A stretch of DNA of 64,000 nt. Origin: a virus. The stretch spans positions 30,024-94,023 of the IMG/VR virus record IMGVR_UViG_3300032163_000005; one strand, given 5' to 3'. Positions 11,608-47,203 of this stretch are shown one piece after another. Numbering within the stretch: position 1 is the stretch's first letter; the number at the start of each line of letters is the position of its first letter. Below the pieces are notes generated by a model. That model was given only the letters and a program-made list of their open reading frames with translations, was not told the origin of the DNA and searched no databases. The translations under genes and the position numbers were made by a program.

Positions 11608-11814
11608 TCACGCTCCGCGTTCCAACATACTCCGCGCCCACAACTTGAGGGGGTTGGGCTTGCCGCCCTTCACGTTGGGCGCATCCTGACCGGAAGGTGA
11701 GAGGCTTTCGGATTCGTCCTCCAAATCGCTTGGAGAGACGTCTTCATCGAGGGGTTGTCGCGCTCCGCTACGGGGGTTCAGAGCCGTTTTGCCGATCATG
11801 GTGGGCATTGCCAT
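11608..11814 (-). CDS. small protein with C-terminal PLKLWA motif
   Basis: 68-aa ORF between tape measure and LysM genes. Confidence 0.6.
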   Translation of the reverse strand: MAMPTMIGKTALNPRSGARQPLDEDVSPSDLEDESESLSPSGQDAPNVKGGKPNPLKLWARSMLERGA

Positions 11815-11835
11815 ACCCCAAAGCTATCACGTGCC

Positions 11836-13653
11836 CTATGTTGACGTGCGCGCTCCCAGTCGGGCAAGACCGTGTTGCGCGATATCGGTTCGGAACACGA
11901 TGGCCACACGCTCTGGATCTTCGTCTTTGAAATCCTGATTCACATTGATCGAGCCTGTGAAGGTCTGATTGATGTTGGGAGTTTTTCCGATGGGAAGTTT
12001 TGCCTTGGTCGCTTCCGTGCGGCTCGTTTCAACCTGTTCGGCGATGTTGCTCAAACCAAGGGAATTAAGCTTGGCGATGAACGCATCAAGACCTCCCTTG
12101 ACAACATTGTCGCCGCCTTTGACCAATGCATCTTTGAGCTTTTCGCTTCCGTCCAGAAATGTTGCAGCCGCTTTCATGGATTCCGCATCATTGAAGCCGG
12201 ATGCTTCCTCCCATGCTTTGGAAAATGCTGTTGCATTGCCGCCGATCGCCGCACGAGCTTGGGCATTAACGTCTTCCATAATCATCGCGTGATTTTTCAT
12301 CGCGAATTGCATGTCCTTGTCGAAGTCTTCGAGAGCTCCACCTGCATCTGCATAGGCAGCGCGCGCAGATACAACTCCCGCTTTTTTCTCAAACCCAACG
12401 GCACCCTCTTTTGAGCGTACCCCTGCCATCGCAGCTTCTTTGCCTTTGGATAGTGCCTCTTGTTGTGCAGCGGCCTTCCCACCCTCTCCGAGCTTCGAAG
12501 CCTTATCAATCACCGATCCCAAAAAACTGCCCGCTTGCTGAACGCCTTTCACGGTCAGCAACATCACGTCTTTCATGGCCCTAGCAACATCTCTAAAAGA
12601 TTTCGCAAGAAGACCGCGATTGTCATAGATGTATTGAAACGTTGTTCGAAGATCGGCCATTGGTCCTGTCGTGGCGTTCATTTCAATCGCCATACTTTTC
12701 GCGATGCCCATGAGCTCGTCAACAAATGGACCTGCAGCTTTGACTCCGAGAGCCATCGTGTTACCGAAATTCACCGCAATGCTTCCAAGAAGCGCGTGAT
12801 TGTCCTGCAACCATCCATGAACTTTGCCCATAACCGGACCGATGGCTTTGACAATCGGAGCGCCTGCAGCCGCGGCTAGCCGATCAACGAAGAGCTCCAT
12901 TCCCTTGGTCATCTCTCCAATACCAAGAGGAACATCCTTCATCTTTTTACCCATTGCAGCGACAGCCTTTTCCGCCAACTTCATCTGAGCTTCTGGCGAC
13001 ATCTTTTGCATCTGTTGCGCGACAGATTTGGCGTTGCCCTTGAGGAGATGAGTTGCTGAAATCATTCCGACGATTGGATTTTTCGCACGGATGATTCCCA
13101 TCTCAATGGCTTCGAAAGCTTCGGAGATTCCCTCGGCGCCTTGTGGAATGGCGCGACCTGCCGACGCCATGGCTTCTGTGAGCTCGACCGCTTGATCAAT
13201 GGTCTTTCCACCACGTTCAATCACGTTAGTAAATGTCGCCATCATCGCATCTCGAGTTTGTCCCGATGCAAAGGCAACGCTCTCGAGTTGATCTTGAAGA
13301 TCGCCAGCAACGTCCTTCATGTCTTTGAAGGACGTTCCGGACTCATCAAGCAAAGTCAACGTTCCGGCAAGCGCTTTGACTTGAGCAGCGCTCTCCATGT
13401 ACGCGCTTGCAGCGCCAGTCGCGGCACCGATCATTACTGAGCCAGCGGCTACCGCTGCACCTGCGGCAACACCTAATCCGAGCTTCGCGGCGTCACCAAC
13501 TCCACCCCAAATCTTTTTTCCTTCGAGAACGCCGCCATGCCATTTCTTCTGGCTCTTGTTGACATTGGAGATTCCATCTCTGAGCTTTTCAGTCTCCTTC
13601 TTTGCATTGGAGTCAATGACGAGCCGAACGTGAACTTCTGCAGCTTCAGTCAT
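11836..13653 (-). CDS. tape measure protein
   Basis: 605 aa, Ala/Gly/Met-rich helical sequence, follows the tail chaperones. Confidence 0.85.
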   Translation of the reverse strand: MTEAAEVHVRLVIDSNAKKETEKLRDGISNVNKSQKKWHGGVLEGKKIWGGVGDAAKLGLGVAAGAAVAAGSVMIGAATGAASAYMESAAQVKALAGTLTLLDESGTSFKDMKDVAGDLQDQLESVAFASGQTRDAMMATFTNVIERGGKTIDQAVELTEAMASAGRAIPQGAEGISEAFEAIEMGIIRAKNPIVGMISATHLLKGNAKSVAQQMQKMSPEAQMKLAEKAVAAMGKKMKDVPLGIGEMTKGMELFVDRLAAAAGAPIVKAIGPVMGKVHGWLQDNHALLGSIAVNFGNTMALGVKAAGPFVDELMGIAKSMAIEMNATTGPMADLRTTFQYIYDNRGLLAKSFRDVARAMKDVMLLTVKGVQQAGSFLGSVIDKASKLGEGGKAAAQQEALSKGKEAAMAGVRSKEGAVGFEKKAGVVSARAAYADAGGALEDFDKDMQFAMKNHAMIMEDVNAQARAAIGGNATAFSKAWEEASGFNDAESMKAAATFLDGSEKLKDALVKGGDNVVKGGLDAFIAKLNSLGLSNIAEQVETSRTEATKAKLPIGKTPNINQTFTGSINVNQDFKDEDPERVAIVFRTDIAQHGLARLGARTST

Positions 13654-13943
13654 CGCTCCTCCATCAATACATTCTCTTCAGAGACCAATTTCGCAATGAA
13701 ATTCGTTGCCTCAATGAGATCGGTGACTGGGAGATTAGCCCACTGCGTCCACGATTGTCTGCCGTAGCGCGCGCAAAACGCTTTCTGTTTCCTACGTGTA
13801 TTCAAAAGCGCAACGGGATCGATTGCGACTCGCAAATGCCACGACGCATCACTCCACGACTCACACCACGCACCAAAAACAGGCGATGAAAGAAGATCGC
13901 GCTTAGTTACTCGGCCGGCATTGAGATCGTTGAAGTGATGCAA
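13650..13943 (-). CDS. tail assembly chaperone, -1 frameshift extension (gpGT-like)
   Basis: In the -1 frame relative to 13907..14428, no good start of its own, abuts the tape measure gene. Confidence 0.75.
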   Translation of the reverse strand: MHHFNDLNAGRVTKRDLLSSPVFGAWCESWSDASWHLRVAIDPVALLNTRRKQKAFCARYGRQSWTQWANLPVTDLIEATNFIAKLVSEENVLMEER

Positions 13944-15036: not shown

Positions 15037-17613
15037 TTAGGCCGCTTGGGGCAGTTGTTCTGTGACCGTGACCGATTCACCAATCTGCGTCTCGAGCACG
15101 AGTGCATCGATGGATGAGAGCGTCCTCACCTTGATGATGAGTCGGAATATGCCGAGCGCCAACGTGTCTGGCGTGTTGCCGCTCTTGGGATCAAGCGTGT
15201 AGCCCGCAATCCGTTGAAACGCCGGATTGTTTGCCGAGAGCAAGCTGTCGAGGAACCCACGAAACTCCGACGTGATGGCTTGGCGCCTTTGGAAGGTGTT
15301 GAGCTTCTTTCCGAATGCTCGGCCCCTTCGTGCAAGCGTGTCCTGGATGAAATCTGCCATACGACGACGCGCGATGTTGCGGAGCTGAGGGAAGGTTCCC
15401 GGATCAACACTCGTGACGCCGCTCTGGAAGATGAGAACGCCATCATCAATGCGTGGTGCACAGATACCGTTTGCTCGGAACAGCTTGTAGTCGTCCACCG
15501 TGTAGTTGGCTGCGTTGGACGAGCTCTCGAGCGCAACAACCGCCGAGGTGAACGATGTGAGCTGGCCGGGGTTCTCTTCCGGCGCGAGCTGACTAAGGAT
15601 CGACGCAAGGAAGCCGTCTGAACCGAGGTCCACAAGACCATCAGCAGTGAAGCCTGCACCACCGCTGAGACCCCGCCGCGCGATAAGCGGAACGAGGGAT
15701 CGGACGCCTGGATACGTGTAAACAACACGTTGATCGCGATACGCGCCCACGCCCGGTTCCGCCACACGCGAGAGTGCTTGCGCTCGAGATGTCCCAAGTG
15801 GTGGTCGGACCATTCCCATTCGCCCAAAGAGATTGCTCGATGCGCTGAGCACATTCTCTCGAACCTTGCGACGAAGCGCGTTCGACTGACGTGCGCTGTA
15901 GATGATGTTCGCTTCGCGTGAAGGCTGTTGTGGATCAAGCGTGGCATCTAGAGCCGTCGCGTACTGCGAATCGATGGCCGCTTCGGAGAGCGCCGCGGTG
16001 ATGAGTTGCGGATTGACGACGTCGAAGCTCCCGAGGTCGGGTGGTTGATCCACCACAACGATGGTGCCTGCTGTTCCTGAAAGCCCCGATCCATCATCGA
16101 GTGCATGACGAACCTTGACCGAGAACGGTCCGGCATTCGCGGTGTAGACCGATCCGATGAGCGTCGGAGCATCGAACCGAAGCGTTTGCATCGTGACGAA
16201 GACGCGCGTGTTGAGCGCATTACGAACGACCGTTCCCGCGGGAATGTTGCCCGCCACGATCGCTGGAACGCTGATGGTCTGAACGATGAGCCCAAGGTCA
16301 GAGAGGACCGAAGCGGGAGCTCCGACCACGCGAACCTGTCCGCCATTCTTCCGACCGCGGAGAAGCATGTGAGTGGCATCGAGCGATGTTGCCATCGTGA
16401 AGCCCGCCGCCGTGTTGATGTTCGCGATGACGGTTGCTTGGGATTGCGCCGCTGCGATCGTCACGTTGAAGTTGGCTTCATCATCCACGCCAAGCGAGAG
16501 CACACCCGTTCCAACAGTCGGGAATGTCTGCGCTGTTGATCGAAGGTTTGCGATGCCATCGTTCGATCCTTCTTGCGTGGCAACGAATCCAAGAGCCGTC
16601 GCTGTCGTGGCCGGTCCCACTTCGATGTAGTCGCCCGAGGCCACGAAGTTTTTGCTGACGCGAAGACGGCCCGAGGAATCTTGTTCGACGGTCGTTCCTG
16701 TGATCGCTGCCTCAACGATCACCTTGATCTCATTGAAGACGACTGCATCGATGTCCGACACATTGCCTGTGCCTGCGGTCGTGGCGAGCGTGAGATTGAG
16801 CGCTGTGAGAACGCTGGCCGTGCCTGCGACGATGCGCACTTGACTGCCCGTTCCGCGCCGAATGGCCGTGAACGTGATGATGTTGCCGCCACCATCCGAC
16901 GCAAACGTGAAGCCTGCATACGCGTTAATGCGCGCGATGACCTGCAGTTTTGTCTGATCCGCTGCGAGAAACGTCACGATGAAGTTGGCCGCCGAGTCGT
17001 ACCCGAGCGTGAGTGTTTCACCACCCGTGAAGAGTGTTGGGTAGACGCCCGCACCGCTGTTGACCGTTGCAGCCGTCGCGCTGAATGTCGCGCTCACTGG
17101 GCCAGCGCCAATGTCGAGAGCAAGAACTTGCGCGGGTTCGAGGTTGTACGCGAACGATGCAAGCCCTGTTACGAACGCGCGTCGTTGAAACTCGACAGCT
17201 CCCACACTCGTGTCCACGCGAAGACAGAGGAGCCTCTTGAACTTCTTTCCGTTGAGCTGAACGAACGCATTGCCGTTCCAGAATTCATCAACAAGAGCTC
17301 CGTCTACGCGACGCTTCCGCGCTGATGGGTTGTTGCCTGGTACACCGCCGTAACGGTATCCGAGCTCCCCAAGGGAGTTGACGAAGTCGGTCGTCCCTGT
17401 TGGTTCGACCATGCGGACGTTGTTGTCCATCCCGTTGGCGTTCCCGCCCGTCGCAAACTCGCCATCTTCGTACTCGCCAGCACAAATGACGGTCCCCGTT
17501 CCGACGCCGGAGATGGACGCAGGAGGGTCCAAATCCAGAATATTTACGGACTCAATTTCGAGAAAGACCTCGTTTCCTGGGTCCGAAAGGAACCTTCTTA
17601 AAAAAACACTCAT
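15037..17613 (-). CDS. tail sheath protein
   Basis: C-terminal GI......G....SGVT.....RNIARRRMADFI sheath motif; 858 aa with inserted domains. Confidence 0.9.
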   Translation of the reverse strand: MSVFLRRFLSDPGNEVFLEIESVNILDLDPPASISGVGTGTVICAGEYEDGEFATGGNANGMDNNVRMVEPTGTTDFVNSLGELGYRYGGVPGNNPSARKRRVDGALVDEFWNGNAFVQLNGKKFKRLLCLRVDTSVGAVEFQRRAFVTGLASFAYNLEPAQVLALDIGAGPVSATFSATAATVNSGAGVYPTLFTGGETLTLGYDSAANFIVTFLAADQTKLQVIARINAYAGFTFASDGGGNIITFTAIRRGTGSQVRIVAGTASVLTALNLTLATTAGTGNVSDIDAVVFNEIKVIVEAAITGTTVEQDSSGRLRVSKNFVASGDYIEVGPATTATALGFVATQEGSNDGIANLRSTAQTFPTVGTGVLSLGVDDEANFNVTIAAAQSQATVIANINTAAGFTMATSLDATHMLLRGRKNGGQVRVVGAPASVLSDLGLIVQTISVPAIVAGNIPAGTVVRNALNTRVFVTMQTLRFDAPTLIGSVYTANAGPFSVKVRHALDDGSGLSGTAGTIVVVDQPPDLGSFDVVNPQLITAALSEAAIDSQYATALDATLDPQQPSREANIIYSARQSNALRRKVRENVLSASSNLFGRMGMVRPPLGTSRAQALSRVAEPGVGAYRDQRVVYTYPGVRSLVPLIARRGLSGGAGFTADGLVDLGSDGFLASILSQLAPEENPGQLTSFTSAVVALESSSNAANYTVDDYKLFRANGICAPRIDDGVLIFQSGVTSVDPGTFPQLRNIARRRMADFIQDTLARRGRAFGKKLNTFQRRQAITSEFRGFLDSLLSANNPAFQRIAGYTLDPKSGNTPDTLALGIFRLIIKVRTLSSIDALVLETQIGESVTVTEQLPQAA

Positions 17614-17630
17614 GTGGATCTCTCCCTAGA

Positions 17631-17651
17631 CGACGAAACGCGGTTTCGTCG
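17631..17651. promoter_or_regulatory. perfect 9-bp stem hairpin just upstream of the sheath RBS
   Basis: CGACGAAAC-GCG-GTTTCGTCG. Confidence 0.45.
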
Positions 17652-17695
17652 AAAGGTACACGTGCTTGGGGGATTGCGGCAATGATCGCGATTCG

Positions 17696-18535
17696 TCACT
17701 CCGAATCCCGCGGTCCGAATGGATCGCAGGGATCGGGAACGAACGGTTTTTCAGCGTCAATCAAGAGCTGAATGCGCGGATCAGTGGGTTGTGGGTCTTG
17801 GAGCTGAATGAGGTCGTTCGTCTGCGGATCAGCATCCACTGCAACTTCGGCCTGAACGGTGACCGGTAGATAGTTGACCAAGCTCACGAGCGTGAACCGC
17901 ATGTCGAGCGTGAGTCTGGCGCGTCGTCGGTTCAGAACATTGTCCGGTTCATCGAAGAGCTCGCGCTGTTCGAGCGAGAACGAAACGAGCTGATTGAAGT
18001 AGTCGGGCACTCGAAACCGAAGGGCGTAGCTCTGCTCAGATGGTGAGAACGCCGCTTCGAGTCCAGCGAGGATGGCGCGTCGTTCCGCCTTTTTTGCACA
18101 CCAAATCTCGATGACGAGATTCTCTATGTACTCGGATTGCCACTGAATTACGGTGCCTTTGGCATAGACATCGCGCGAGTCTTCTTGCAGGTAAGTGGAG
18201 AATCCGATCGTCTCGTACGCAACCGGCACGTTGCCCGAGATGAACGCGATGGATGGGAATCGAAGGTCCGACTCGTTGTCTGGCCACTCGATGTGGATGT
18301 CATCGAGTGGGATCTGAAAGTCGATGGGAGCTCCGCGCTTCTTCGTGGTGCGGTCAACGTCACCTTCACGGAAGAATGTGAGCTCGGAGATGTAGCGTGC
18401 GAGGATGCGAAGACATGCTGTGCGACCATCGGCCGCGGGTGGGGGCGGATTGGGCTTGGGCGGAAATCCGACAGCTCCCCAAGGAGTACCTTGAAAGAGC
18501 TTCAGAAGGCCGTCTGAGAGCTTGGGGATGCCCAT
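17696..18535 (-). CDS. tail terminator/completion protein (putative)
   Basis: FPSIAF and L.IEIW motifs; position before sheath. Confidence 0.6.
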   Translation of the reverse strand: MGIPKLSDGLLKLFQGTPWGAVGFPPKPNPPPPAADGRTACLRILARYISELTFFREGDVDRTTKKRGAPIDFQIPLDDIHIEWPDNESDLRFPSIAFISGNVPVAYETIGFSTYLQEDSRDVYAKGTVIQWQSEYIENLVIEIWCAKKAERRAILAGLEAAFSPSEQSYALRFRVPDYFNQLVSFSLEQRELFDEPDNVLNRRRARLTLDMRFTLVSLVNYLPVTVQAEVAVDADPQTNDLIQLQDPQPTDPRIQLLIDAEKPFVPDPCDPFGPRDSE

Positions 18536-19071
18536 TACTTGAAGCTCTTTCCAAGAGCTCGTTGGAGCTCCTTCTTGAGGTAGCCTTCAAGACCTTGAAG
18601 CCCCTGCTCGAGGATCCGAAGCCCGCCTTTGCCACCTGCCGATCCGCGATTGAAGATGCCCTTTTTCCTCATGCTATGCGCGATGGCGAATGCAACGCCA
18701 CGAGCGGCGTCAGTCGCGCGTTTACCCTTACCTCCAACCAACCCCTTTCGCTTGGCCCATTTCGCGAGCGCATCGATCATCACGCGACCTGGTTTGACGT
18801 TGGCTGCGCGTACGCCGCCCTCGATAAGCGGCGCTTGTACTGACGCGTTGATGATGTCCGCACCTCGTTTGGTAGACCGAACACGCCACGCTGCGCGATA
18901 GATGCCGCGATCTACAGGTGGAGGTTTTTGCGCGGGGATGAGTCGTACCTGTATGTCTTGAACGATGTGAAGAGCTGCAGCATGGATGGCAGTGTGTGCG
19001 GCTTTCTCAAACCCCTTCGTGATGTGGATTTGAATCTGCCCTGCTTCGTTGCTCTCGAACCGCTTGGACAT
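18535..19071 (-). CDS. neck protein (HK97 gp10-like)
   Basis: PPVDRG.YRAAW, A..IE.G, L.KWAKRK, AFAIA.S..KKG motifs. Confidence 0.75.
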   Translation of the reverse strand: MSKRFESNEAGQIQIHITKGFEKAAHTAIHAAALHIVQDIQVRLIPAQKPPPVDRGIYRAAWRVRSTKRGADIINASVQAPLIEGGVRAANVKPGRVMIDALAKWAKRKGLVGGKGKRATDAARGVAFAIAHSMRKKGIFNRGSAGGKGGLRILEQGLQGLEGYLKKELQRALGKSFK

Positions 19072-19102
19072 GGTTCAGAGCATAGCGCGGCATCAATGGG
19101 AT

Positions 19103-19747: not shown

Positions 19748-19896
19748 CGCGGCGGATGGATACTCCGCTCGACGACGCTCTTCTCACCCGTCTTCGGATC
19801 GGTTCGTTGCTCGATGACCACGATGGGTGTCTTCGGCTTTGTCTTGATAAAGGCCGGCCGCCGACCTCGACCCCGAATCTCAATCTCACGTCTCAT
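19744..19896 (-). CDS. 50-aa basic protein (not in ORF track)
   Basis: MRREIEIRGRG...SIHPPR, ATGA overlap with the upstream gene. Confidence 0.5.
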   Translation of the reverse strand: MRREIEIRGRGRRPAFIKTKPKTPIVVIEQRTDPKTGEKSVVERSIHPPR

Positions 19897-20192
19897 TGAT
19901 CACCCTTCGGTTGCCACCAATCGGAACAATACGTTGTCGGAGACGCAGGGAGCTCCGCGCCGCCATTCCACTGTTGGAAGTTGGGCTCGTTACACGTTCC
20001 CTGTTCCCCATCAATCGCCACGAACCGACAATTGGAACATGACGATCCGCCTTCTGGGACGTTCATTCCGGGAAGGTGCCCTGCGGGAAGTGTGGCGGTT
20101 CCAAGGTTGACATCTTGTGCCAAAGGAAGACGCGCCTTTGAGTCTTGTGGTCCGCCCACCACCGACGACGCCCATTGCCGAATATCAGGCAT
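19893..20192 (-). CDS. HiPIP-like four-Cys protein with N-terminal DIRQWA motif
   Basis: CSNCRF..x..C...YCSDW pattern. Confidence 0.6.
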   Translation of the reverse strand: MPDIRQWASSVVGGPQDSKARLPLAQDVNLGTATLPAGHLPGMNVPEGGSSCSNCRFVAIDGEQGTCNEPNFQQWNGGAELPASPTTYCSDWWQPKGDQ

Positions 20193-20616
20193 TGCTCACG
20201 CTTTCATCGTACTGCCGTCGATGCATCCCATCCCACGGGCCATTCGATGTTGGGGTGTTGGCAACATACGCCGGAACAGACAATCCTTCACGTTGATACG
20301 CGAGTGCTCGATGATGCCCATCCACTACCGTCACTGTTTTCGCGTTCGGCTTCTGAATGAGGATGATCGGCTTTCTCCAACCATTCCGAATCTTCATCTG
20401 AAACGACTCGACACGCGATGGTTCTTTGGTCGCTGTCCAACTCTCGCGATCGGAGAAGTCGATGTCCGAAAGAGGCACGTTCGTTGGCCCTTTCCACGGC
20501 ACCGATCGCACCCATGAGCGAGCTTCGGGCGGATAGTCTTCAGCCAGCTCGACATAGAGCTTCTCACCAATCGCGTTGGTCTTGGCCGTTGCCCACTTTT
20601 TCAGATCAGATGCCAT
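20185..20616 (-). CDS. ParB/Srx-like domain protein with N-terminal DLKKWA motif
   Basis: PIIL......VVDGHHRALA. Confidence 0.75.
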   Translation of the reverse strand: MASDLKKWATAKTNAIGEKLYVELAEDYPPEARSWVRSVPWKGPTNVPLSDIDFSDRESWTATKEPSRVESFQMKIRNGWRKPIILIQKPNAKTVTVVDGHHRALAYQREGLSVPAYVANTPTSNGPWDGMHRRQYDESVSNA

Positions 20617-21280
20617 CACGCGATTCACTACTCAGATGCCCATCACGTTGCCGATCTTCACTCATGCGTTCGAGCGTGATCATCCATTGAAACTTCCCTG
20701 GATCACGAAATGGCGATGAGAGAAGTCGGAACCGCTTGCGCGTTGAGTTGGGTCTGTCTTCGACAATCTCGTAGAAGAATTCGAAGGGCTCTTCCACGCG
20801 ATCACGAACGCGCACGAATGGCTGCCCAATCATCTCCGAGCTCGTTCGCGCCAGTATGTCGGGTGGGAGTGCTTGCCCCGCGCCGATGTGCGGAGCTCCG
20901 CAAGCATCGAGATAGGGCTGTGGGGGTATCTGCTTGCCCATCAGAACGTCTTCCGTAAGCTGCCCAGTGATTTCCTCAACCCGGACGCTTCCGACTGGCA
21001 GAAGGCCTGCTGAGTAGGCTGAGAGGCTCACGCTGGTCAGATCGATGACCTTGGGCCTTGGGAGAATGGGAACTTGAGCAAGGATGGTTTCGTGGCCTTC
21101 CCCTCGCTCGAGTCCGCCCCATCGCGTCCAAACGAGAAGAACGACGTAATTCCTCAGACCGAAGCTCGTGAAGCGTTGACGAAGCTTGTCGACGGTTGGT
21201 TGCAGCCTCTCAACAAGCGGAGGACCGCACGCGCCACGTGTGGCGATGCAAGTCGTACAAATGCCGCATGCGCAAGCCAC
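20606..21280 (-). CDS. head closure/stopper protein (putative)
   Basis: Position between adaptor and neck; ends W.ITLER. Confidence 0.55.
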   Translation of the reverse strand: MACACGICTTCIATRGACGPPLVERLQPTVDKLRQRFTSFGLRNYVVLLVWTRWGGLERGEGHETILAQVPILPRPKVIDLTSVSLSAYSAGLLPVGSVRVEEITGQLTEDVLMGKQIPPQPYLDACGAPHIGAGQALPPDILARTSSEMIGQPFVRVRDRVEEPFEFFYEIVEDRPNSTRKRFRLLSSPFRDPGKFQWMITLERMSEDRQRDGHLSSESRDGI

Positions 21281-21550
21281 TTAGAACTTCTCCGGACCTT
21301 CGTGACTTGGTGGCCCTGACTTCGACCACAATCGCTGGAATGAAACGGGAACCGATGTTTTTTTGGACTTCGGATTTGCTCGTGGACGTGTGTGATCGAT
21401 TTCGATTTGCGTTCCCGACATCCCGCCGTTTTTTTGAACCGACTCAACGTGAAAATAGATGTCCTTGTCGCTGAAAGATTGGATGTACCACTCTCCAACC
21501 TGCATCGATCCGCCGCTCTGCGCAGCCGCCCATTGTTTGATCGCTGCCAT
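21281..21550 (-). CDS. small protein with N-terminal AIKQWA motif
   Basis: 89-aa ORF, tightly packed. Confidence 0.65.
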   Translation of the reverse strand: MAAIKQWAAAQSGGSMQVGEWYIQSFSDKDIYFHVESVQKNGGMSGTQIEIDHTRPRANPKSKKTSVPVSFQRLWSKSGPPSHEGPEKF

Positions 21551-21552
21551 GC

Positions 21553-21753
21553 CTAAGCCGCTTTCTTCCGACGTTCAGCCCACTGCTTCGCACGTTTGGC
21601 GGGCACGAGCCCATCATCAGCCATCTCGAGGTCGTGTGCCGCTTCTTCTCCCCCGGTCTCTTCACGTTTGGAAGCAGGCTTTCTGGACGTCCAAATGGCG
21701 TGCTTCTCATCAAGTTTTTTGATGGCCTCTGCCCACTTCTTGATCGGAAGCAT
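21553..21753 (-). CDS. small protein with PIKKWA and AKQWA motifs
   Basis: 66-aa ORF, tightly packed. Confidence 0.65.
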   Translation of the reverse strand: MLPIKKWAEAIKKLDEKHAIWTSRKPASKREETGGEEAAHDLEMADDGLVPAKRAKQWAERRKKAA

Positions 21754-21756
21754 GCA

Positions 21757-22044: not shown

Positions 22045-22048
22045 CGCA

Positions 22049-24708: not shown

Positions 24709-25620
24709 TTAGAAATTCCAACCGTTCTGCCTCTTGAAGTCACGCCATTCCTTGTCGTTGACGCTTCCCGCCTGTCCCGGCGCGAATGTCTTCGGCGCTG
24801 CAATCCCCGCAGGATTCACATTTTGCGGACGCTGAATGTTCGCACCATTCGTCAATGGTTGTCCTGGAATGGGTACTGCGGGAGTGGGTGCTACAACCGG
24901 CCCAGCGCCGCCAATGGCAGATCCGCCCGTTGATGGAATGGCCAACGCTCCATCTTCCGCAACCGCGCGCTGACACCACGCTTGAACCACGGCATCTGGA
25001 TCAGCGAGCTCTGCATCTGAGAGTCCTGAGATGTACTCTGCAAGATTCTTGAGCTCGTGCTTCATGTACCGCGGGTTGATGTGTTGCGCGACGATCGCAA
25101 CGACATGGTGGTCTTGCTCGGCCACTACACGTTCGGTTTGCACCTGTTCCGCGCGCGTCTCTGCTTCGACCGCACGACGTTCAGCCGCCGCAAGTTGTTC
25201 GGTGAGTCGCTGCGTTTCCGTGAGGTCAGCGAGTCGTCTCTCTTCTCGCTCCGCGCGCATGACACGAAGCTCATCGAGGTCCGCTCGAATCTGATCAACG
25301 TTGTCCGTTCCGAATCGCTCGCGAAGTTGTTTTTTCGCGTATCGATCGAGCCGTCCTTTGAGAGCTGTTGGCGGGAGCTCGATGAGATCGGCGTCGTTGG
25401 GGATGTCGTCAGCATCACCAATTAGCTTGCGCGTTGGGACTCGCCCCGCGGGAGCTGGAATGGGAACGGGGATGGCGGGCTGGGCTGGCGCAGCAACGGG
25501 AGGAGAGACGGGAGGTGGTTGCTGCGCTTGCTGTTGAACGGGCGGGGTTGGCGCCTGTTGTGGTGTGCTCGCGCCACCAGGGGGCTGTTGCCCCACTCCC
25601 GTATCTCCTTGCATCGACAT
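24709..25620 (-). CDS. capsid scaffolding protein
   Basis: Pro/Gln-rich termini with central coiled coil, upstream of the capsid gene. Confidence 0.75.
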   Translation of the reverse strand: MSMQGDTGVGQQPPGGASTPQQAPTPPVQQQAQQPPPVSPPVAAPAQPAIPVPIPAPAGRVPTRKLIGDADDIPNDADLIELPPTALKGRLDRYAKKQLRERFGTDNVDQIRADLDELRVMRAEREERRLADLTETQRLTEQLAAAERRAVEAETRAEQVQTERVVAEQDHHVVAIVAQHINPRYMKHELKNLAEYISGLSDAELADPDAVVQAWCQRAVAEDGALAIPSTGGSAIGGAGPVVAPTPAVPIPGQPLTNGANIQRPQNVNPAGIAAPKTFAPGQAGSVNDKEWRDFKRQNGWNF

Positions 25621-41426: not shown

Positions 41427-41594
41427 TCATTTGCCATGTTTGGCTTTCGCCCACTGTTTTATGGGCTTCACCTTCTCAGGAAGCTTCTTTCCCTTCGATG
41501 CCTCATCGAATTCATCGATGACATCTTGAGGGATCTCACCCGCGTCTGCTTTGGCGTGCATTGCGGCGGCTTGTGCCTTTGATTTGTACGGCAT
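41427..41594 (-). CDS. 55-aa protein with C-terminal PIKQWA (not in ORF track)
   Basis: MPYKSKAQAAAMHAK...KLPEKVKPIKQWAKAKHGK. Confidence 0.7.
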   Translation of the reverse strand: MPYKSKAQAAAMHAKADAGEIPQDVIDEFDEASKGKKLPEKVKPIKQWAKAKHGK

Positions 41595-41598
41595 GAGG

Positions 41599-41838
41599 TC
41601 AGTCGTCTTTGTCGACGCCCGCCGCCTCCATGAATTTCTTCCGCTTCAACCCCGATGCCTTGAGCGCGCTCTCTGCCTGTTCGAGTTTTTTCTTGGTCGC
41701 GTCTGTTGGAGCTGCAGTGTGCGCTGCGTGCGCATCGACATACCGCGAGTGGAGCTCCTTGTGCGCGGCTTCACCGGGCATCTCGCCCCCTGCTCTGTAT
41801 GCCGCCCACTTCTTGATGTCACTTGGCATTGGATACAC
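41599..41838 (-). CDS. small protein with N-terminal DIKKWA motif
   Basis: 79-aa ORF. Confidence 0.65.
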   Translation of the reverse strand: MYPMPSDIKKWAAYRAGGEMPGEAAHKELHSRYVDAHAAHTAAPTDATKKKLEQAESALKASGLKRKKFMEAAGVDKDD

Positions 41839-42241
41839 ATCTCACTGTGCCACATGCGCGGATTTCCGCGATCCCTGCAGCGGCTGCGATGCATGCTGGT
41901 TTGAGCGTGTACTTGCCGGAATTCTCAGCATCGCGACATAGCGCATAGCAAGTCTTCCCACCTGTTGGCGTGTTGGCTTCGGGACATGGCGCCGCTTTGA
42001 GCTTGGCGCATGCCCTCACACAATCCGGAAACTTGGCCTGTCCAACCGTTGGGTCTTCACCGTCTGACGCGTCCTGCGTGACGATGGGAAAGCCCCCATC
42101 GTCCGAAGGTTGAACGACGGGAGGTTGTGGATCGGGACTGTTTCCGGGACATCCCGCGCATCCAGCGATGATTATCGCTATGAAAACGAAGAGTTGTGAG
42201 TTTAGACAGATCGATCTGTCTAAACGGCTTGAGGATGCCAT
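41819..42241 (-). CDS. Cys-rich lipoprotein; palindrome copy 4 lies in its 5' end
   Basis: Hydrophobic stretch ending IAGC; eight further C-terminal Cys. Confidence 0.6.
   Translation of the reverse strand: MASSSRLDRSICLNSQLFVFIAIIIAGCAGCPGNSPDPQPPVVQPSDDGGFPIVTQDASDGEDPTVGQAKFPDCVRACAKLKAAPCPEANTPTGGKTCYALCRDAENSGKYTLKPACIAAAAGIAEIRACGTVRCVSNAK
42201..42224. repeat. 24-bp palindrome, copy 4
   Basis: Exact. Confidence 0.95.
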
Positions 42242-42807
42242 TAGAACCTCGGGGGACCGGGATGGGGCGGAGGTGGAGCGCCTCCTGCGGGTGGAGCGCC
42301 AGGGGCTGGTGGAGCGCCAGCAGGAGGCATTCCAGGTGGCATCGCTGCTTTCGCTGTTTGTTCGGCTTGATGGACGAAGAACGTCGCGACCGCACGCGGC
42401 TCAGGCAACGTTTGCCAGGCTTGGCCGATCTGCACCTTGGCCTGTTCCCACTTCATGGGATCGATCCACGTGGGTGGCGGATCAGGCGCATTGCCTTGGA
42501 GCTCGGCTTGCTGTTCGGGTGTGAGCCACGTGAGCTGTGCGACTCGAATGTCTGGCGGCGCTACGGGTGCGGCTGTTGGCGGTGGATGCGGAGCGGGAGG
42601 AGCGGGAGGAGCGCCCGGTGGAAGAGCAGCGGGATGAGATGGAGGAGCTCCGCCTGGTGGTGCAGCGCCCATGGGTGGCTTGGGTGGCCCACCTGGTGGA
42701 GGAGCTCCGCCTGGCGCGGGTGGTCCGCCAGCCTTGGGAGGGAACCCCTTTCCAGGTGGCTTCTTGCCAAGCTTCGCGTTTGCCCACTGCTTCAACGGAT
42801 CGGCCAT
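42241..42807 (-). CDS. Pro/Gly-rich protein with N-terminal PLKQWA motif
   Basis: GGAPP repeats flanking a P.W.D..KW..AK core; AGGAG RBS. Confidence 0.7.
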   Translation of the reverse strand: MADPLKQWANAKLGKKPPGKGFPPKAGGPPAPGGAPPPGGPPKPPMGAAPPGGAPPSHPAALPPGAPPAPPAPHPPPTAAPVAPPDIRVAQLTWLTPEQQAELQGNAPDPPPTWIDPMKWEQAKVQIGQAWQTLPEPRAVATFFVHQAEQTAKAAMPPGMPPAGAPPAPGAPPAGGAPPPPHPGPPRF

Positions 42808-42842
42808 TTGAGCTCCTTCGGATTCGTCTCAAACGATTGCTA

Positions 42843-43715: not shown

Positions 43716-44127
43716 TCGGCGAGCCTACCACGGCTTTCAGGCATTCCTTGATCAGCGTTCGACGCCCATCGGATTCGTCTTCGCCCTTACGAATGGTGTG
43801 CGCGAGTTGATAGGGGATCTTTATCGCTTCCCATCGTCCATTGATGCGTTCGTACTTCTCTTTCGTCCACGTCGCATTGAACGTCACGAAATCCAATCCT
43901 TCGGTGCGTTCTATCTCGAAGTCCGGCCAGAGTGCGCGACATCTCGAGAAGTTGCATCCGGCATTACCCGATTCGCGCGTCATCTTCGCGAGCTGTTCTT
44001 GGCGGTACTTCTCCCAACGTTCGAAACCGACCTTCGTGCTGTACGACGTGGGATCATCATGCGCGATGGTCTCTCGCTTGTTGAACGCCAAGAGCGATCG
44101 ATCGGGGAAGTAGCCTTTTTCGGTCAT
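43690..44127 (-). CDS. hypothetical protein
   Basis: 145-aa ORF in operon. Confidence 0.5.
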   Translation of the reverse strand: MTEKGYFPDRSLLAFNKRETIAHDDPTSYSTKVGFERWEKYRQEQLAKMTRESGNAGCNFSRCRALWPDFEIERTEGLDFVTFNATWTKEKYERINGRWEAIKIPYQLAHTIRKGEDESDGRRTLIKECLKAVVGSPNGDRRSTG

Positions 44128-44471
44128 GTGATTCCGTGGATGCTCCGCTCAAATTCCTTCGTGAACCATGCGAGCTCTTCAGACGTTGGAAGTCCATCTT
44201 CAGGATGCTGCGCTTGGAAGTGGAGCTCGAAGATCTTCACTCCGCCAGGTGCAAAAGCAAGGCACGCGATGCCTTCCGCGAGATGGTTGAACACAACGGC
44301 CGTTTGACCAGGCTTCTTTGATCGAAACAGGATGATGTCGCCCTTCTCAGCCACGACTTGAGCACACTCTCGAGCCCGCACAAGAATGCGCGACCACGGC
44401 TCTTGAGCAAGCCTCGCCATGTAGAGAGGCACGCTAACTTGAAGTGCCGTTCGGAGAAGCGTGAGACTCAT
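44124..44471 (-). CDS. hypothetical protein
   Basis: 115 aa, ATGA-coupled. Confidence 0.55.
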   Translation of the reverse strand: MSLTLLRTALQVSVPLYMARLAQEPWSRILVRARECAQVVAEKGDIILFRSKKPGQTAVVFNHLAEGIACLAFAPGGVKIFELHFQAQHPEDGLPTSEELAWFTKEFERSIHGIT

Positions 44472-44682
44472 CGATGCATTTCCTCTTCATGAAAATCACA
44501 CACACCGTCTGTCGTGGCTGGACGGCGACATTTCGGTTTGAAACATCGCGTGTTTCGCCATCGTACCCACGCTGATCGATTCGATTCTTGTGCGACTCGC
44601 TGCAACATTTCCGGAGCATAGCCGCCGTGGCTTTTGAGGAATTCAACATAGCTCGGGTTTTCTCGTCCGCTTGATCCACGTT

Positions 44683-45183
44683 TCATCGGATTGACTCCCG
44701 AAGATGACCGATGCCATCCGGAAAATGATGTCTGTAGAAAACGCCAAATGGCTCTGTCTTTTGGAGCTCCTCAAGTGTCATCCAAGAGATCTCCGTTCCC
44801 TTTTCGACTTGTCGCACCTCGCCACGAAGTACCGATCCAAAGAAACAGTGAACCTCACGTCCACTCTCGCTCGCTGAATAGCCTCGAAACATCCATACAA
44901 GCTCGATAACGTCGAGTCCGGTCTCTTCGCGGAGCTCGCGTGCAGCGGCTTGCCGTGGTGACTCACCCACTTCGACTTTGCCACCCGGAATGCAGTACCC
45001 GCCGTAGTTGCGATTCGAAACCGCGAGGATTTCACGGAATGGATTGATGACAAGCACGATGCCGGATTGCTTCACGCAATTCACGCAATGGGTCATGCCG
45101 CCAAAAGTCACGTACTCGCCCGTTCCACCGCACTGTTGGCAGACCTTTAAGATGTGATTGGCGATGTGTAATTCATCAAGCAA
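44683..45183 (-). CDS. Nudix hydrolase with N-terminal Zn-finger-like Cys pairs (start uncertain)
   Basis: Nudix box GGKVEVGESPRQAAARELREETGL. Confidence 0.88.
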   Translation of the reverse strand: MLDELHIANHILKVCQQCGGTGEYVTFGGMTHCVNCVKQSGIVLVINPFREILAVSNRNYGGYCIPGGKVEVGESPRQAAARELREETGLDVIELVWMFRGYSASESGREVHCFFGSVLRGEVRQVEKGTEISWMTLEELQKTEPFGVFYRHHFPDGIGHLRESIR

Positions 45184-46042
45184 TGAACGCCTCCGTATTC
45201 TCGAGACGCATTTCAGAAATCTTGATGGCAAGCTTGCTCGAGTCGATTCCAATCGCTCGCCTTCCCATGCTCTTTGCCGCCACAAGTGTGGTTCCAGATC
45301 CACAGTAAGGATCAAGCACCGTGTCACCTTCATACGTGAGCGTCCCGATGAGTTGTCTGAGAAGTTTGAGCGGCTTCTGTGTTGGGAATCCCGATCGCTC
45401 TGTTGAAACCGGAGCTATCACACCGATGTCCCAAACGTCACCCAACGGAACACCTTTCGAGGGTTCGCTCGTCTTGGAGCTCTTGGTGCGGTGACCGTGC
45501 TCATCAAAGAGCGCTTGCTGCTTCGTCGTTCCCCATTGCTCGAGTGTGGATGGCGCGAGTGGTTCATAGAACTGAACGAATCGAGGTGGCGTGGTGATGT
45601 CCTTGCGATACCTGAGAAGCACATCATGCACACGTTGGAAGTTGGGCGTCTTCGTGGGCCATCGGCGGTAGCGCCAAATGATCTCGCTCGCGAAATGGTC
45701 CTCACCAAAGATCTCATCGCAAAAGCACTTGATGTAGTGGCTCATCTTCGGATCGCAGTGGATGACCATCGAGCCATCGTGCGAGAGGAGCTCCCAAATG
45801 AGCCGTACCCGTTGGGTCAAGTGATCGAGGTAATGTCCACGATCGAGCCAACGATCATCAAACGCGAGTGACCCGTCCTCCATCACATACTTCTTCTGAC
45901 TCATGAACGGCGGATCGAGGTAAACGAGCTGAGCTCGCGTTCCCTCTTTGAGCATTCGCGTCATCGCTCGGATGTTGTCCCCGTGAATGAGTATTGGGGT
46001 CGTGATTTCGATTCCTTTGGTCGCAAGAAGTCGTCTGGTCAC
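45176..46042 (-). CDS. DNA methyltransferase (N6-A/N4-C, beta class)
   Basis: YLDPPF, FPTQKP, LDPYCGSGTT in beta order. Confidence 0.92.
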   Translation of the reverse strand: MTRRLLATKGIEITTPILIHGDNIRAMTRMLKEGTRAQLVYLDPPFMSQKKYVMEDGSLAFDDRWLDRGHYLDHLTQRVRLIWELLSHDGSMVIHCDPKMSHYIKCFCDEIFGEDHFASEIIWRYRRWPTKTPNFQRVHDVLLRYRKDITTPPRFVQFYEPLAPSTLEQWGTTKQQALFDEHGHRTKSSKTSEPSKGVPLGDVWDIGVIAPVSTERSGFPTQKPLKLLRQLIGTLTYEGDTVLDPYCGSGTTLVAAKSMGRRAIGIDSSKLAIKISEMRLENTEAFIA

Positions 46043-46382
46043 GTTGAAGCCTCCGCTCTTCCTTCTTTGCCGCCGCTCGCAGAGAACTTCGTATGCGTTC
46101 GCGAGCTTTCACATCTTCGCGTGCTCTGTATTCGTGATGGCGTTCGAGCTCTCGAGCATGATGCCGCGTGCGATAGGTCGCATCGGTGAGCTTCTTTGCT
46201 TCGAAGTCTCGTCCTTCGCGACGCGTCTTCTCGAAAACCTTGGGCCCGACTGCTTTGGTAATGGCGTTCGCATGCCTGTTCCCAAGATGCCCGAGGCATT
46301 CGTACGTGGGAACAATGAGCGGCTTAAACATCGCCGCAATCTCTTCGATGTCGAGCATGTGGTGCGCGGAGCTTAGCCCAGG

Positions 46383-46682
46383 TCATTGCTCGAATCGTTG
46401 CCGCGCTCGTTGCATGTCTTCCTGAAACATGCGGGAGATTTCGTCAGGGTCGGTCGTTTTCATCACGTGATTGATGACGAATTTCATCTTGGGATCGAAG
46501 GCCGATTGCTTCTTTCGCTCGTCGTCTTGCCGCATGCTGCGAATCCAATTGGAGATCCCCCATCCCACAACGAGAAGTGCCAAGATCCACGTCACGCCGA
46601 TCGCACGAGCGAGGTAGCCAAGCATCGCTGCTTCGATGCAACTTCCAACGAAGATGAGAGACCATCGTTTCCACGAGCTCAT
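46383..46682 (-). CDS. two-TM membrane protein
   Basis: Two hydrophobic helices. Confidence 0.55.
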   Translation of the reverse strand: MSSWKRWSLIFVGSCIEAAMLGYLARAIGVTWILALLVVGWGISNWIRSMRQDDERKKQSAFDPKMKFVINHVMKTTDPDEISRMFQEDMQRARQRFEQ

Positions 46683-47203
46683 GTGCCGTTATTACCGCCA
46701 TTCATTGGTTGATCGGGAACTTTCCAGCCCGCTGCATCAAGATCCACCACGCGAGCTCGAATTGAAGGCTGGCCTCGAAGATGTGCGGCGGTAGCGCGGT
46801 GATGTCCATCATGCGCAAACAAGCGTCCTCCGACACGAACAATCGTGGGCACGTCCACAAGCCCACCGTGACCAGGCGCACGAGTCCCCATCGGAATGAG
46901 TCCAGGATTGTCGTAGTGCGCCTGTAACCGTTCAGCGTTGACGTGCCGTTGAAGCCCATAGAGCTCCGAGAGCTTTACGTCTTGGATGGCTGCTTCTTCG
47001 GCGCGTTTGAAGATGCCTGAGCCTCTGATCTGCCTCAGGTACTCATTGCGATCGGCAAGCTTGAACGGATGCCTGACGATGCCTGGTTTGTCACCAGGTG
47101 AGAGAGTGAGCGTGGGATCAGGACGATAGTTCTGAACCGTTGCCCGAGCCCACGTCCTGAGCTGTTGTGCCCTCGAGATGCCTTCTTGTGTCCCCTGATT
47201 CAC
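46679..47203 (-). CDS. ParB/Srx-like protein with N-terminal QLRTWA motif
   Basis: P.IVR......HDGHHRATA. Confidence 0.7.
   Translation of the reverse strand: MNQGTQEGISRAQQLRTWARATVQNYRPDPTLTLSPGDKPGIVRHPFKLADRNEYLRQIRGSGIFKRAEEAAIQDVKLSELYGLQRHVNAERLQAHYDNPGLIPMGTRAPGHGGLVDVPTIVRVGGRLFAHDGHHRATAAHLRGQPSIRARVVDLDAAGWKVPDQPMNGGNNGT

What the first reader, a model, noticed from the sequence alone, without database searches (positions are those of the whole stretch)
11608..47203. Nine or more unrelated small proteins share a terminal [IL]-[KR]-[KQ]-W-A motif: candidate capsid-targeting or docking tag
Seen: PLKLWA (11608, C-term), DIRQWA (19893), DLKKWA (20185), AIKQWA (21281), PIKKWA and AKQWA (21553), PIKQWA (41427, C-term), DIKKWA (41599), PLKQWA (42241), QLRTWA (46679); weaker RVKKWA (55245). 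The motif is always within about 18 aa of a terminus, the DNA differs between copies, and the attached domains differ (HiPIP-like, two ParB/Srx, Pro-rich, disordered). Knowledge: T4 internal proteins use a short capsid-targeting sequence. Inference: a modular short-helix address that loads diverse cargo into the head for injection, or binds one common partner.
Basis: partly seen in the sequence, partly recalled or inferred. Interest (0 to 1): 0.8.

Follow-up and report, generated by a model that had tools for sequence, protein, structure and literature searches.

The report
Portable Trp-Ala docking tag on phage proteins
A 94-kb uncultured sediment phage puts the same ten-residue helix (hydrophobic-Lys-x-Trp-Ala) at the very end of a dozen unrelated accessory proteins, most likely as an address label that docks them to one common partner, probably in the assembling virus particle.

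Summary
Strict [IL][KR][KQ]WA occurs 7 times against 0.06 expected. The DNA flanks are only 28% identical, so selection acts on the peptide.

The tag reads [P/D/A]-[L/I]-[K/R]-x-W-A-x-A-[K/R]-x-G. It looks like one short capped helix followed by a Gly/Pro/charged linker.

It is portable and conserved across a clade of uncultured ~90-100 kb contractile-tailed phages:
- 49 of 50 ParB-like homologues keep it.
- One orthologue carries it at the C-terminus instead of the N-terminus.
- A small acidic protein after the tape-measure-position gene ends with it in 7 of 8 genomes.
- A second ParB/Srx family has it only in this phage.

The tagged zeta-toxin kinase is telling. Its stand-alone relatives often carry the tag, while 8-16 of its 40 long relatives are fused to portal, MuF or DUF2213 head proteins.

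Best reading (0.45): a non-covalent virion-loading tag, replacing covalent fusion to head proteins. The partner is unknown and nothing shows packaging directly.

The parts
11608..11814 (-). 68-aa acidic, disordered-looking ORF directly after the 605-aa gene in the tape-measure position. C-terminal tag PNPLKLWARSMLERGA* (LKLWA codons 11635-11649).
   Evidence: A syntenic ORF with a C-terminal hydrophobic-x-x-W-[AV] is present in 7 of 8 genomes; the eighth (G005) has LADFV.
19893..20192 (-). 99-aa Cys-rich protein, N-terminal tag MPDIRQWASSVVGG (IRQWA codons 20169-20183).
   Evidence: Orthologues in G002 and G003 start MALGTWARK and ..GLGSWVADS. No Pfam or PHROG family. No homologue in the 5.8-billion set.
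20185..20613 (-). 142-aa ParB/Srx-like protein, N-terminal tag MASDLKKWATAKTNAIG (LKKWA codons 20590-20604).
   Evidence: PHROG ParB-like E 3.8e-4. All 6 homologues found elsewhere lack the tag and begin at the domain.
20606..21280 (-). 224-aa conserved head-tail module gene lying between tagged genes (context only, not tagged).
   Evidence: Homologue next to the 178-aa-gene homologue in G010. A 222-aa ORF sits at the same position in L029/G005. Abuts or overlaps its neighbours by 0-8 nt.
21281..21550 (-). 89-aa protein, N-terminal tag MAAIKQWAAAQSGG (IKQWA codons 21527-21541).
   Evidence: The Atlas model's structural matches start at residues 11-16, that is after the tag, in 4 of 5 rows shown.
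21553..21753 (-). 66-aa protein with two tags and no domain: N-terminal MLPIKKWAEA (21730-21744) and C-terminal AKQWAERRKKAA* (21577-21591).
   Evidence: scores 15.4 and 15.1.
41427..41594 (-). 55-aa protein, C-terminal tag KPIKQWAKAKHGK* (IKQWA codons 41448-41462).
   Evidence: score 17.5. A weak Lsr2_DNA-bd match covers residues 16-32, not the tag.
41599..41829 (-). 76-aa protein, N-terminal tag MPSDIKKWAAYRAGG (IKKWA codons 41803-41817).
   Evidence: It scores only 7.9 with the relatives' matrix because of Y at +3.
42241..42807 (-). 188-aa Pro-rich protein, N-terminal tag MADPLKQWANAKLGKK (LKQWA codons 42781-42795).
   Evidence: Weak G001 homologue starts MASVTRSWAKK.
46679..47203 (-). 174-aa ParB-like (HDGHHR) protein, tag QQLRTWARAT at residues 13-22 (LRTWA codons 47147-47161).
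   Evidence: Of 50 aligned homologues 49 keep the tag. The G004 orthologue has it at the C-terminus. Best PDB match is ParB 4UMK at E 0.15.
55245..55661 (-). 138-aa protein with RVKKWARK near the N-terminus. Doubtful member: part of a conserved helix of its own family.
61434..61622 (-). 62-aa ORF with weak tag-like NAKAWARV at residues 12-19.
   Evidence: (score 12.1). Not followed up.
18535..19071 (-). 178-aa conserved ORF in the neck/tail-completion position with an internal look-alike, MIDALAKWAKRKGL, then a variable-length basic linker and a second conserved helix. Relation to the tag unresolved.
   Evidence: W, A, RKG invariant in the 5 sequences aligned; the same look-alike, with V for A after W in several, read in the 7 relatives. 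PHROG minor tail protein only at E 0.028. Matrix score 11.4.
24709..25620 (-). 303-aa scaffold-position protein. Its C-terminus is a conserved aromatic helix, E-[YFL]-x-x-[WY]-K-x-x-x-G in several orthologues, that resembles the tag but does not match it.
   Evidence: (C-termini of G000 and 7 orthologues).

Best explanation
The hydrophobic-[K/R]-x-W-A peptide is a portable docking tag. It appears to be a single short amphipathic helix with a P/D/S cap before it and a Gly after it. A flexible linker joins it to the extreme N-terminus, or less often the C-terminus, of otherwise unrelated accessory proteins. The Leu/Ile, Trp and Ala would form one face that plugs into a groove on a single common partner.

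I think the partner most likely belongs to the assembling virion: the portal / MuF / scaffold core of the procapsid, or the neck-tail channel. The tagged proteins (two ParB-like proteins, a zeta-toxin-type kinase, a Cys-rich protein and several small proteins) would then be taken into the particle and delivered with the DNA. The tag would do non-covalently what covalent fusion to portal or MuF does in other phages.

Shown: the tag exists, is far beyond chance, is selected at the peptide level, is portable, and is conserved across a phage clade. Inferred: helix formation, a common partner, the virion as destination, and injection.
For: 1. Enrichment and peptide-level selection.
2. Conservation against variable flanks. 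In the 49 of 50 ParB-like homologues that keep the tag, the W position is W in 45 and F in 4, A follows in 46, a hydrophobic residue sits at -3 in 44, and K/R at -2 in 35.
3. Portability. The G004 orthologue of that family ends ..GLQAWAERE* and lacks an N-terminal copy. The family of 20185-20613 has the tag only here, with 0 of 6 other homologues carrying it. A further orthologous pair, genome 25190-25732 and a G006 ORF, both carry it.
4. Anatomy. -4 is P/D/A in 9 of 11, +3 is A in 7 of 11, +6 is G in 6 of 11, and the median number of large hydrophobic residues is 3.
5. Link to the virion.
   a. The tagged kinase has a Pfam Zeta_toxin domain (E 2.3e-23). Among its 150 best representatives, 12 stand-alone forms (283-517 aa) have a tag scoring >=11 bits in the first 35 residues, 8 of them >=13. 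None of the 40 long forms (>=700 aa) does.
   b. Of those 40, 6 hold Phage_Mu_F, 5+2+1 hold portal families and 2 hold DUF2213, so 8 to 16 proteins if the families overlap. PMC5512222 (passages read) says zeta-toxin-like kinases are fused to MuF in phages, and that polyvalent proteins with ParB domains are packaged (P1 DdrB).
   c. The small ORF after the tape-measure-position gene ends in the tag in 7 of 8 genomes.
   d. Five tagged ORFs are packed end to end with a conserved head-tail gene between the capsid and sheath genes, with no promoter-like or terminator-like site on the coding strand inside. The cluster is absent from that position in G005/L029.
6. Precedent. T4 internal proteins are diverse defence proteins sharing only a capsid targeting sequence (PMC3012670, passages read). 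The first 30 residues of P1 DarB direct a reporter into capsids (PMC9024508, passages read).
Against:
- The partner is unidentified.
- About half of the tagged genes lie among non-structural genes (41427-47203 in the window, and genome 5688, 25190 and 26281).
- The carriers best conserved across the relatives examined are in the tail/neck region rather than the head, so 'capsid' may be the wrong compartment.
- No conserved protease site follows the tag, unlike T4.
- Several cargoes have long acidic linkers, which is unusual next to packed DNA.
- The tag matrix does not match the scaffold-position protein's C-terminus.
- The relatives examined carry few copies. G003 and G005 have 0 hits >=13 bits, though weaker variants such as LGSWA occur.
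- The fusion argument concerns one cargo family only.
Confidence: 0.45

Rival explanations
1. Docking tag for a hub that is not part of the virion. The same helix binds a host protein or a phage non-structural protein (for example a replication or partition factory, or a chaperone), bringing accessory enzymes to one place in the infected cell.
For: Portability and conservation fit any common partner. About half of the tagged genes sit among non-structural genes.
Against: It does not explain why the long relatives of the tagged kinase are often tethered to portal or MuF. It also does not explain why a tail-module protein carries the tag in 7 of 8 genomes, or why five tagged genes are inserted into the head-tail operon.
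Confidence: 0.22
2. Degradation or stability tag. A terminal peptide recognised by a host AAA+ protease or adaptor limits the lifetime of potentially toxic accessory proteins (zeta kinase, ParB-like nucleases).
For: The need to be at either terminus is typical of degrons (established knowledge, recalled). C-terminal copies are followed by basic tails, e.g. ..WAERRKKAA* and ..WAKAKHGK*. Several cargoes look toxic.
Against: A conserved tail-module protein is an odd client for a degron. The strict W-A pair with a hydrophobic residue at -3 was not matched to any degron class I could test. The portal/MuF fusions of the kinase relatives are not explained.
Confidence: 0.08
3. Membrane-targeting amphipathic helix. 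The Lys-flanked Trp helix lies on the inner membrane and concentrates the proteins there.
For: Short terminal helices with Trp and Lys at either end of a protein are the usual form of bacterial membrane-targeting sequences (recalled). The position at either terminus fits.
Against: The median tag has only 3 large hydrophobic residues in 11. Near-invariance of A after W and of the -3 residue across 49 homologues points to a specific pocket rather than bulk amphipathicity. Some relatives' tags are acidic, e.g. LLDWAHASET and VLKWAEANDS.
Confidence: 0.07
4. Half of a small DNA-binding helix-loop-helix (SAP/HeH- or Lsr2-like). The helix plus a basic Gly-rich loop would tether proteins to DNA, which could also carry them into the head.
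For: The 178-aa neck-position protein has LAKWAKRKGLVGGKGKR followed by a second helix. Some tags are followed by basic Gly-rich stretches, e.g. KLGKKPPGKG and KHGK. There is a weak Lsr2_DNA-bd match in 41427-41594 (E 0.0057).
Against: That Pfam match is below the cut-off and covers residues 16-32, not the tag. Many tags are followed by neutral or acidic residues. No second helix is conserved after the tags. No SAP, HeH or Lsr2 family was found in any tagged protein.
Confidence: 0.05
5. Not a functional peptide: a DNA/RNA-level element near gene starts, leftovers of duplicated genes, or chance.
For: The motif was defined after looking at the sequence, and most copies lie just after start codons.
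Against: Flanking DNA is at random identity and synonymous codons vary. Copies also lie at C-termini. The motif-blind scan puts it first, p 1.9e-11 among 48,032 patterns. A matrix from other genomes' proteins recovers the copies. The attached domains are unrelated.
Confidence: 0.01

Closest known systems
Capsid targeting sequence (CTS) of phage T4 internal proteins (IPI-III, Alt)
   Same: A short terminal peptide is the only thing shared by a diverse, fast-changing set of accessory/defence proteins of one phage (PMC3012670, passages read). Several of the genes are clustered.
   Different: The T4 CTS is N-terminal only, targets the scaffolding core and is removed by the prohead protease (recalled). 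Here copies also sit at C-termini, no cleavage motif follows, the sequence is unrelated, and packaging is not shown.
N-terminal packaging signal of phage P1 DarB (Dar anti-restriction system)
   Same: An N-terminal stretch of 30 residues or fewer directs a cargo, even a reporter, into the capsid. P1 also packages a ParB-domain protein, DdrB (PMC9024508 and PMC5512222, passages read).
   Different: Here one clear consensus is shared by a dozen proteins and by orthologues across a clade.
MuF- or portal-fused 'polyvalent' effectors of phages (Iyer et al. 2017, PMC5512222)
   Same: Same kinds of cargo domain: Zeta_toxin kinase and ParB. Between 8 and 16 of the 40 long homologues of the tagged kinase hold MuF, portal or DUF2213 domains.
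   Different: Those are covalent fusions. Here the cargo is a stand-alone protein with a ten-residue tag, and the long fused forms lack the tag (0 of 40).
C-terminal coat-binding helix-turn-helix of scaffolding proteins (P22 gp8), used to load foreign cargo into P22 particles
   Same: A short terminal helical element docks to the inside of the procapsid, and cargo fused to it is encapsulated (PMC9962691, passages read). The scaffold-position protein of this clade ends in a conserved aromatic helix of similar shape.
   Different: The tag has A after W where that protein has K/R, and the tag matrix does not match it. The 303-aa protein is called a scaffold by position and composition only.
Cargo-loading peptides of encapsulins, and encapsulation peptides of bacterial microcompartments (recalled, not looked up)
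   Same: Short helices at either terminus, joined by a flexible linker to unrelated enzymes, bind the shell interior.
   Different: Different shells and different sequences. This is an analogy of principle only.

Membership tests
T4-type capsid targeting sequence | One short terminal peptide shared by otherwise unrelated accessory proteins of the same phage | tested here: met
T4-type capsid targeting sequence | Strictly N-terminal and followed by a conserved prohead-protease cleavage motif | tested here: not met
   Three of the 11 copies analysed are C-terminal. No conserved residue pattern that looks like a cleavage site follows the tag; the recurring residues after it are A at +3, K/R at +4 and G at +6.
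T4-type capsid targeting sequence | Tagged proteins present in the virion; tag sufficient to carry a foreign protein in | not testable with these tools
   Uncultured phage. Only two sediment DNA runs hold it. No close cultured relative.
Scaffold-type coat-binding terminal helix | Sequence likeness between the tag and the terminus of the phage's own scaffolding protein | tested here: inconclusive
   C-termini of the scaffold-position protein in G000 and 7 orthologues share E-[YFL]-x-x-[WY]-K-x-x-x-G in several. The shape is similar, but +1 is K/R rather than A.
Polyvalent / MuF- or portal-anchored injected effectors | Cargo domain of a type found fused to MuF or portal | tested here: met
   Zeta_toxin in genome 5688-6674. 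Among its 40 long homologues, MuF in 6, portal families in 5+2+1 and DUF2213 in 2.
Polyvalent / MuF- or portal-anchored injected effectors | Covalent fusion of the cargo to a head protein, or a multi-domain giant protein | tested here: not met
   The tagged proteins here are 55-328 aa with a single domain or none.
Lsr2 / SAP-HeH type DNA-binding helix-loop-helix | Significant profile match that covers the motif | tested here: not met
   Lsr2_DNA-bd E 0.0057, 16.4 bits against a cut-off of 26.9, on residues 16-32 of 41427-41594, which is not the tag. There is no other match.
ParB/Srx superfamily (cargo of 46679-47203 and 20185-20613) | Profile match to a ParB/Srx family above threshold | tested here: inconclusive
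   46679: ParBc_2 E 0.036 and PF23719 E 8.5e-5, both below cut-off. The family profile's only PDB hit is ParB 4UMK at E 0.15, with HDGHHR aligned to its GERR box. 20185: PHROG ParB-like at E 3.8e-4.

The most novel reading that the evidence does not exclude
This phage clade sorts its proteins with a small code of terminal peptides. The Trp-Ala helix routes interchangeable effectors into the particle by occupying the site used by the scaffold-position protein's own aromatic C-terminal helix (or a site in the neck channel). This lets the phage swap injected cargo simply by adding ten residues. A second, unrelated N-terminal tag (MARRL[VI]) routes replication and recombination proteins to a different hub.
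Probability: 0.2. Interest if true: 0.85.

Novelty: new variant of a known kind. Interest (0 to 1): 0.66.

Why it matters
If the tag loads proteins into particles, it would be a natural, sequence-defined, ten-residue virion address that works at either end of a protein and is shared across a whole clade. P1 has a functional signal but no consensus. T4 has a signal tied to protease processing.

It would also show that free-standing effectors with a docking tag are an evolutionary alternative to the giant portal/MuF fusion proteins. That would give a simple sequence rule for listing the injected arsenal of uncultured phages from sequence alone.

Whatever the partner turns out to be, the tag marks a set of at least a dozen unknown small proteins as working at one place. 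That makes them testable as a group.

Tried and rejected
- Nucleotide and protein searches of the cultured-phage collection found nothing near. There was no match for 19000-23000 or for the ParB-like protein. The capsid protein matched only at 27-32% identity, to Streptomyces, Ralstonia and Komagataeibacter phages. No virion proteome of a relative could therefore be consulted.
- Pfam and PHROGs left most tagged proteins and most structural neighbours unnamed. 'Tape measure', 'neck' and 'scaffold' are names by position only.
- The homologue search for the Cys-rich protein found none.
- A single-protein scan of viral contigs with the ParB-like protein found no relative.
- A PDB profile search with the 178-aa protein gave only chance-level rows (E 0.74 and 1.6). 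The second is an APEX nuclease with a similar L-R-A-W-V-K-K-x-G-L helix. This shows that this kind of capped helix also occurs inside ordinary folds.
- The Atlas look-up of 21281-21550 gave only unnamed clusters.
- Sequencing runs: two sediment DNA runs hold the stretch and no RNA holder is listed. I did not lay reads.
- Literature: six pentapeptide forms of the tag were searched in full text. 53 papers hold at least one; the 10 listed are unrelated by title, and I did not open them or see the other 43. A words search on cargo, targeting peptide and ejection proteins listed nothing on such a motif among the 10 of 308 shown. I have found no description of this tag, within those limits. Supplements were not opened.
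- Rejected readings:
  - A DNA-level repeat.
  - An Lsr2 domain.
  - 55245 and 40777 as tags.
  - My first guess that 42843-43715 is a ParB; it matches papain-type Peptidase_C1.
- My 3-of-5 pattern count was too noisy, and I replaced it.
- The scan of relatives required K/R at -2 and so missed the LGxWA variants. Searches corrected that.

Full report
WHAT THE DNA IS. The window is bases 30024-94023 of a 94,023-bp virus record with 55.6% G+C. By my heuristic gene call, 101 of 103 genes lie on the minus strand. Profile matches name a few genes:
- portal, 29384-31198
- MuF-like head protein, 28377-29387 (PHROG 9.4e-6; Pfam Phage_Mu_F 8.7e-4, below cut-off)
- major head protein, 23107-24528
- tail sheath, 15037-17613
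- baseplate wedge protein, 3565-4680

Most other structural genes match nothing. I name them by position only. No cultured phage is close; the best capsid identity is 32%.

Thirty IMG/VR loci encode capsid proteins 46-70% identical. I read five such records in full or nearly so (G001-G005). I also read a 103-kb contig binned in a Methylocystis MAG (G006), one more record (G007) and three more distant fragments (G008-G010; the capsids of G009 and G010 are about 38-41% identical).

A six-frame scan finds ten [ILVM][KR][KQTRE]WA words, all in minus-strand frames.

Statistics:
- Within-protein shuffles give 0.06 strict copies against 7 seen, and 0.32 loose copies against 11 seen. Ten of those 11 lie within 25 residues of an end.
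- A scan that knows nothing of the motif ranks K.WA.A first of 48,032 patterns, p 1.9e-11.
- That matrix gives 14 hits >=13 bits in this genome (three off-frame or on the other strand), against 0.41 per 94 kb in 30 other viral loci.
- Flanking DNA is 28% identical and codons vary, so the peptide is what is kept.

Two corrections. RVKKWA in 55245-55661 is part of a helix conserved within its own family and probably not a tag. VREWA in 40777-41268 is internal.

The genome holds more copies outside the window. There is an N-terminal one on a zeta-toxin-type kinase (genome 5688-6674; Pfam Zeta_toxin 2.3e-23). There is one about 30 residues into a 180-aa protein. A weak one lies at the C-terminus of a helicase-like protein whose sequence has a P-loop-like motif (not scanned against Pfam).

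ANATOMY. Over eleven copies:
- -4 is P, D or A in 9
- -3 is L or I in 10
- -2 is K or R in 11
- W and the following A are invariant
- +3 is A in 7
- +4 is K or R in 6
- +6 is G in 6

From sequence, this reads as one helix of about ten residues with a cap at each end and L/I, W and A on one face. After it come Gly-, Pro-, Ser- or charge-rich stretches, then the domain. In the kinase the Pfam domain starts at residue 95. One 66-aa protein (21553-21753) is nothing but tag, linker and tag.

THE TAG IS OLD, SELECTED AND PORTABLE.
- The ParB-like protein 46679-47203 has 53 homologues in the 5.8-billion-protein set. I aligned 50, leaving out the three shortest. Forty-nine keep the tag. Among those 49, W appears in 45 and F in 4, A follows in 46, a hydrophobic residue sits at -3 in 44, and K/R sits at -2 in 35. 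The residues around it and its distance from the start (W at index 3-30) vary freely. The fiftieth looks like a late start call.
- In G004 the orthologue has no N-terminal copy and ends ..GLQAWAERE*.
- The Cys-rich protein's orthologues in G002 and G003 begin with LGTWA and LGSWV forms.
- A 180-aa protein of this genome and its G006 relative both carry the tag.
- The second ParB/Srx family (20185-20613) has six homologues elsewhere, and none has the tag. Their sequences begin where the domain begins. The tag was therefore added in this lineage.
- G006 has at least four N-terminal and three C-terminal copies. The other relatives read in full have few. This genome, with a dozen or more, is an expansion.

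LINKS TO THE PARTICLE.
1. The small ORF between the 605-aa tape-measure-position gene and the next tail gene is present in all 8 genomes examined. It has a low-complexity middle (acidic or Ser-rich in most) and a C-terminal hydrophobic-x-x-W-[A/V] followed by basic residues in 7. G005 has L-A-D-F-V.
2. Five tagged ORFs at 19893-21753 are packed, with overlaps or gaps of a few bases, around a conserved 224-aa head-tail gene between the capsid and sheath genes. There is no promoter-like or terminator-like site on the coding strand inside. The only strong hairpin follows the capsid gene. The same interval in G005/L029 lacks them.
3. The tagged kinase gives a fusion argument. In the 1.84-billion-representative library its 150 best relatives include 40 proteins of 700-2090 aa. 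Pfam finds Phage_Mu_F in 6 of these, portal families in 8 and DUF2213 in 2, besides NUDIX, InPase, ART and ddrB-ParB. None of the 40 has the tag. Twelve of the shorter stand-alone forms have it within their first 35 residues. Two such stand-alone forms were found on IMG/VR contigs; one contig (G009) carries a capsid gene of this clade, and the other (G008) is a fragment in which none was found.

Iyer et al. (PMC5512222, passages read) describe exactly these architectures as effectors packaged in the head and injected. They name the zeta-toxin-like kinase fused to MuF, and ParB domains such as P1 DdrB. The simplest reading is that the tag replaces the covalent tether.

WHAT IS NOT SHOWN. Nothing here shows that any tagged protein is in a particle, that the tag is a helix, or what it binds.
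- Half of the tagged genes lie among non-structural genes.
- The carriers best conserved across the relatives are in the tail/neck region rather than the head.
- No protease site follows the tag.
- The fusion argument rests on one family.

Two look-alikes remain unresolved. The 178-aa neck-position protein has an internal, well conserved M-I-D-A-L-A-x-W-A-x-R-K-G-L followed by a linker of 7 to about 90 residues and a second helix. The scaffold-position protein ends in a conserved aromatic helix. Either could be the natural ligand of the site that the tags use, or a coincidence of helix design. An unrelated nuclease in the PDB has a similar capped helix.

RIVALS. A hub outside the virion, a degron, a membrane-binding helix and a DNA-binding half-motif are each compatible with part of the data. 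They are weighed in their own sections. A DNA-level element or chance is excluded.

COMPARISON WITH WHAT IS KNOWN. The nearest thing in function is the capsid targeting sequence of T4 internal proteins (PMC3012670), then the N-terminal packaging signal of P1 DarB (PMC9024508). In P1 the authors found no consensus among the Dar proteins. The P22 scaffold's C-terminal helix-turn-helix, to which cargo can be fused (PMC9962691), is the nearest in principle for a helix that works at a terminus. This tag differs in sequence, in working at either end, in lacking a processing site, and in being shared by orthologues across a clade. I found no description of it, within the limits of two literature searches. 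An earlier first-stage note of this scan on the same genome made the same observation and proposal.

VERDICT. The reading as a portable docking tag is well supported (about 0.75 over all partners). Virion loading is the best single mechanism at 0.45. Class: a new variant of a known kind.

Noticed in passing
genome 8630-8845, 12624-13739, 15273-16202 and 23463-24959 (outside the window); window 22659-22982: A second, unrelated N-terminal peptide, MARRL[VI] (or MARRV), opens several otherwise different ORFs.
   Followed up: no
P0063-P0159 (kinase homologues); G006 4833 (C-terminus of a tagged ORF): A motif RD-x-x-G-[RK]-F, usually preceded by W/F-D/N-E..HP and followed by a Gly run, occurs 27 times in 22 of the 150 kinase relatives. 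It lies at N-termini and at domain junctions of the long portal-fused forms. In several stand-alone kinases it sits just before the W-A tag. No copy in this genome.
   Followed up: partly
window 42843-43715 (-): The 290-aa gene just upstream of the tagged Pro-rich protein matches papain-type Peptidase_C1 (E 1.5e-5, 25.6 bits, above the cut-off of 20.7). A cysteine protease next to a tag cluster might process tagged proteins.
   Followed up: no
window 11608-11814 and its syntenic ORFs in G001-G007: Besides the C-terminal tag, this small protein keeps an N-terminal MAFPPK-type start in 4 of 8 genomes and a related MAFPK/MAMP start in three more. The G005 version carries tag-like helices at both ends (ALAQYV.. 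and ..LADFV).
   Followed up: partly
window 23021-23048 (-): A 12-pair hairpin followed by a T run directly after the major capsid gene. It is the only terminator-like site on the coding strand in 17500-23200.
   Followed up: no
whole record against relatives: This genome has 55.6% G+C. Its relatives by capsid have 61-68% (G001-G004, G006, G007) or 43.9% (G005), so the clade probably spans different hosts. One relative is binned in a Methylocystis MAG (L057), a weak host clue.
   Followed up: no
window 18535-19071 (-): Between the two conserved helices of the 178-aa neck-position protein, the linker varies from 7 residues to about 90 (G005). It is basic and Gly-rich.
   Followed up: partly
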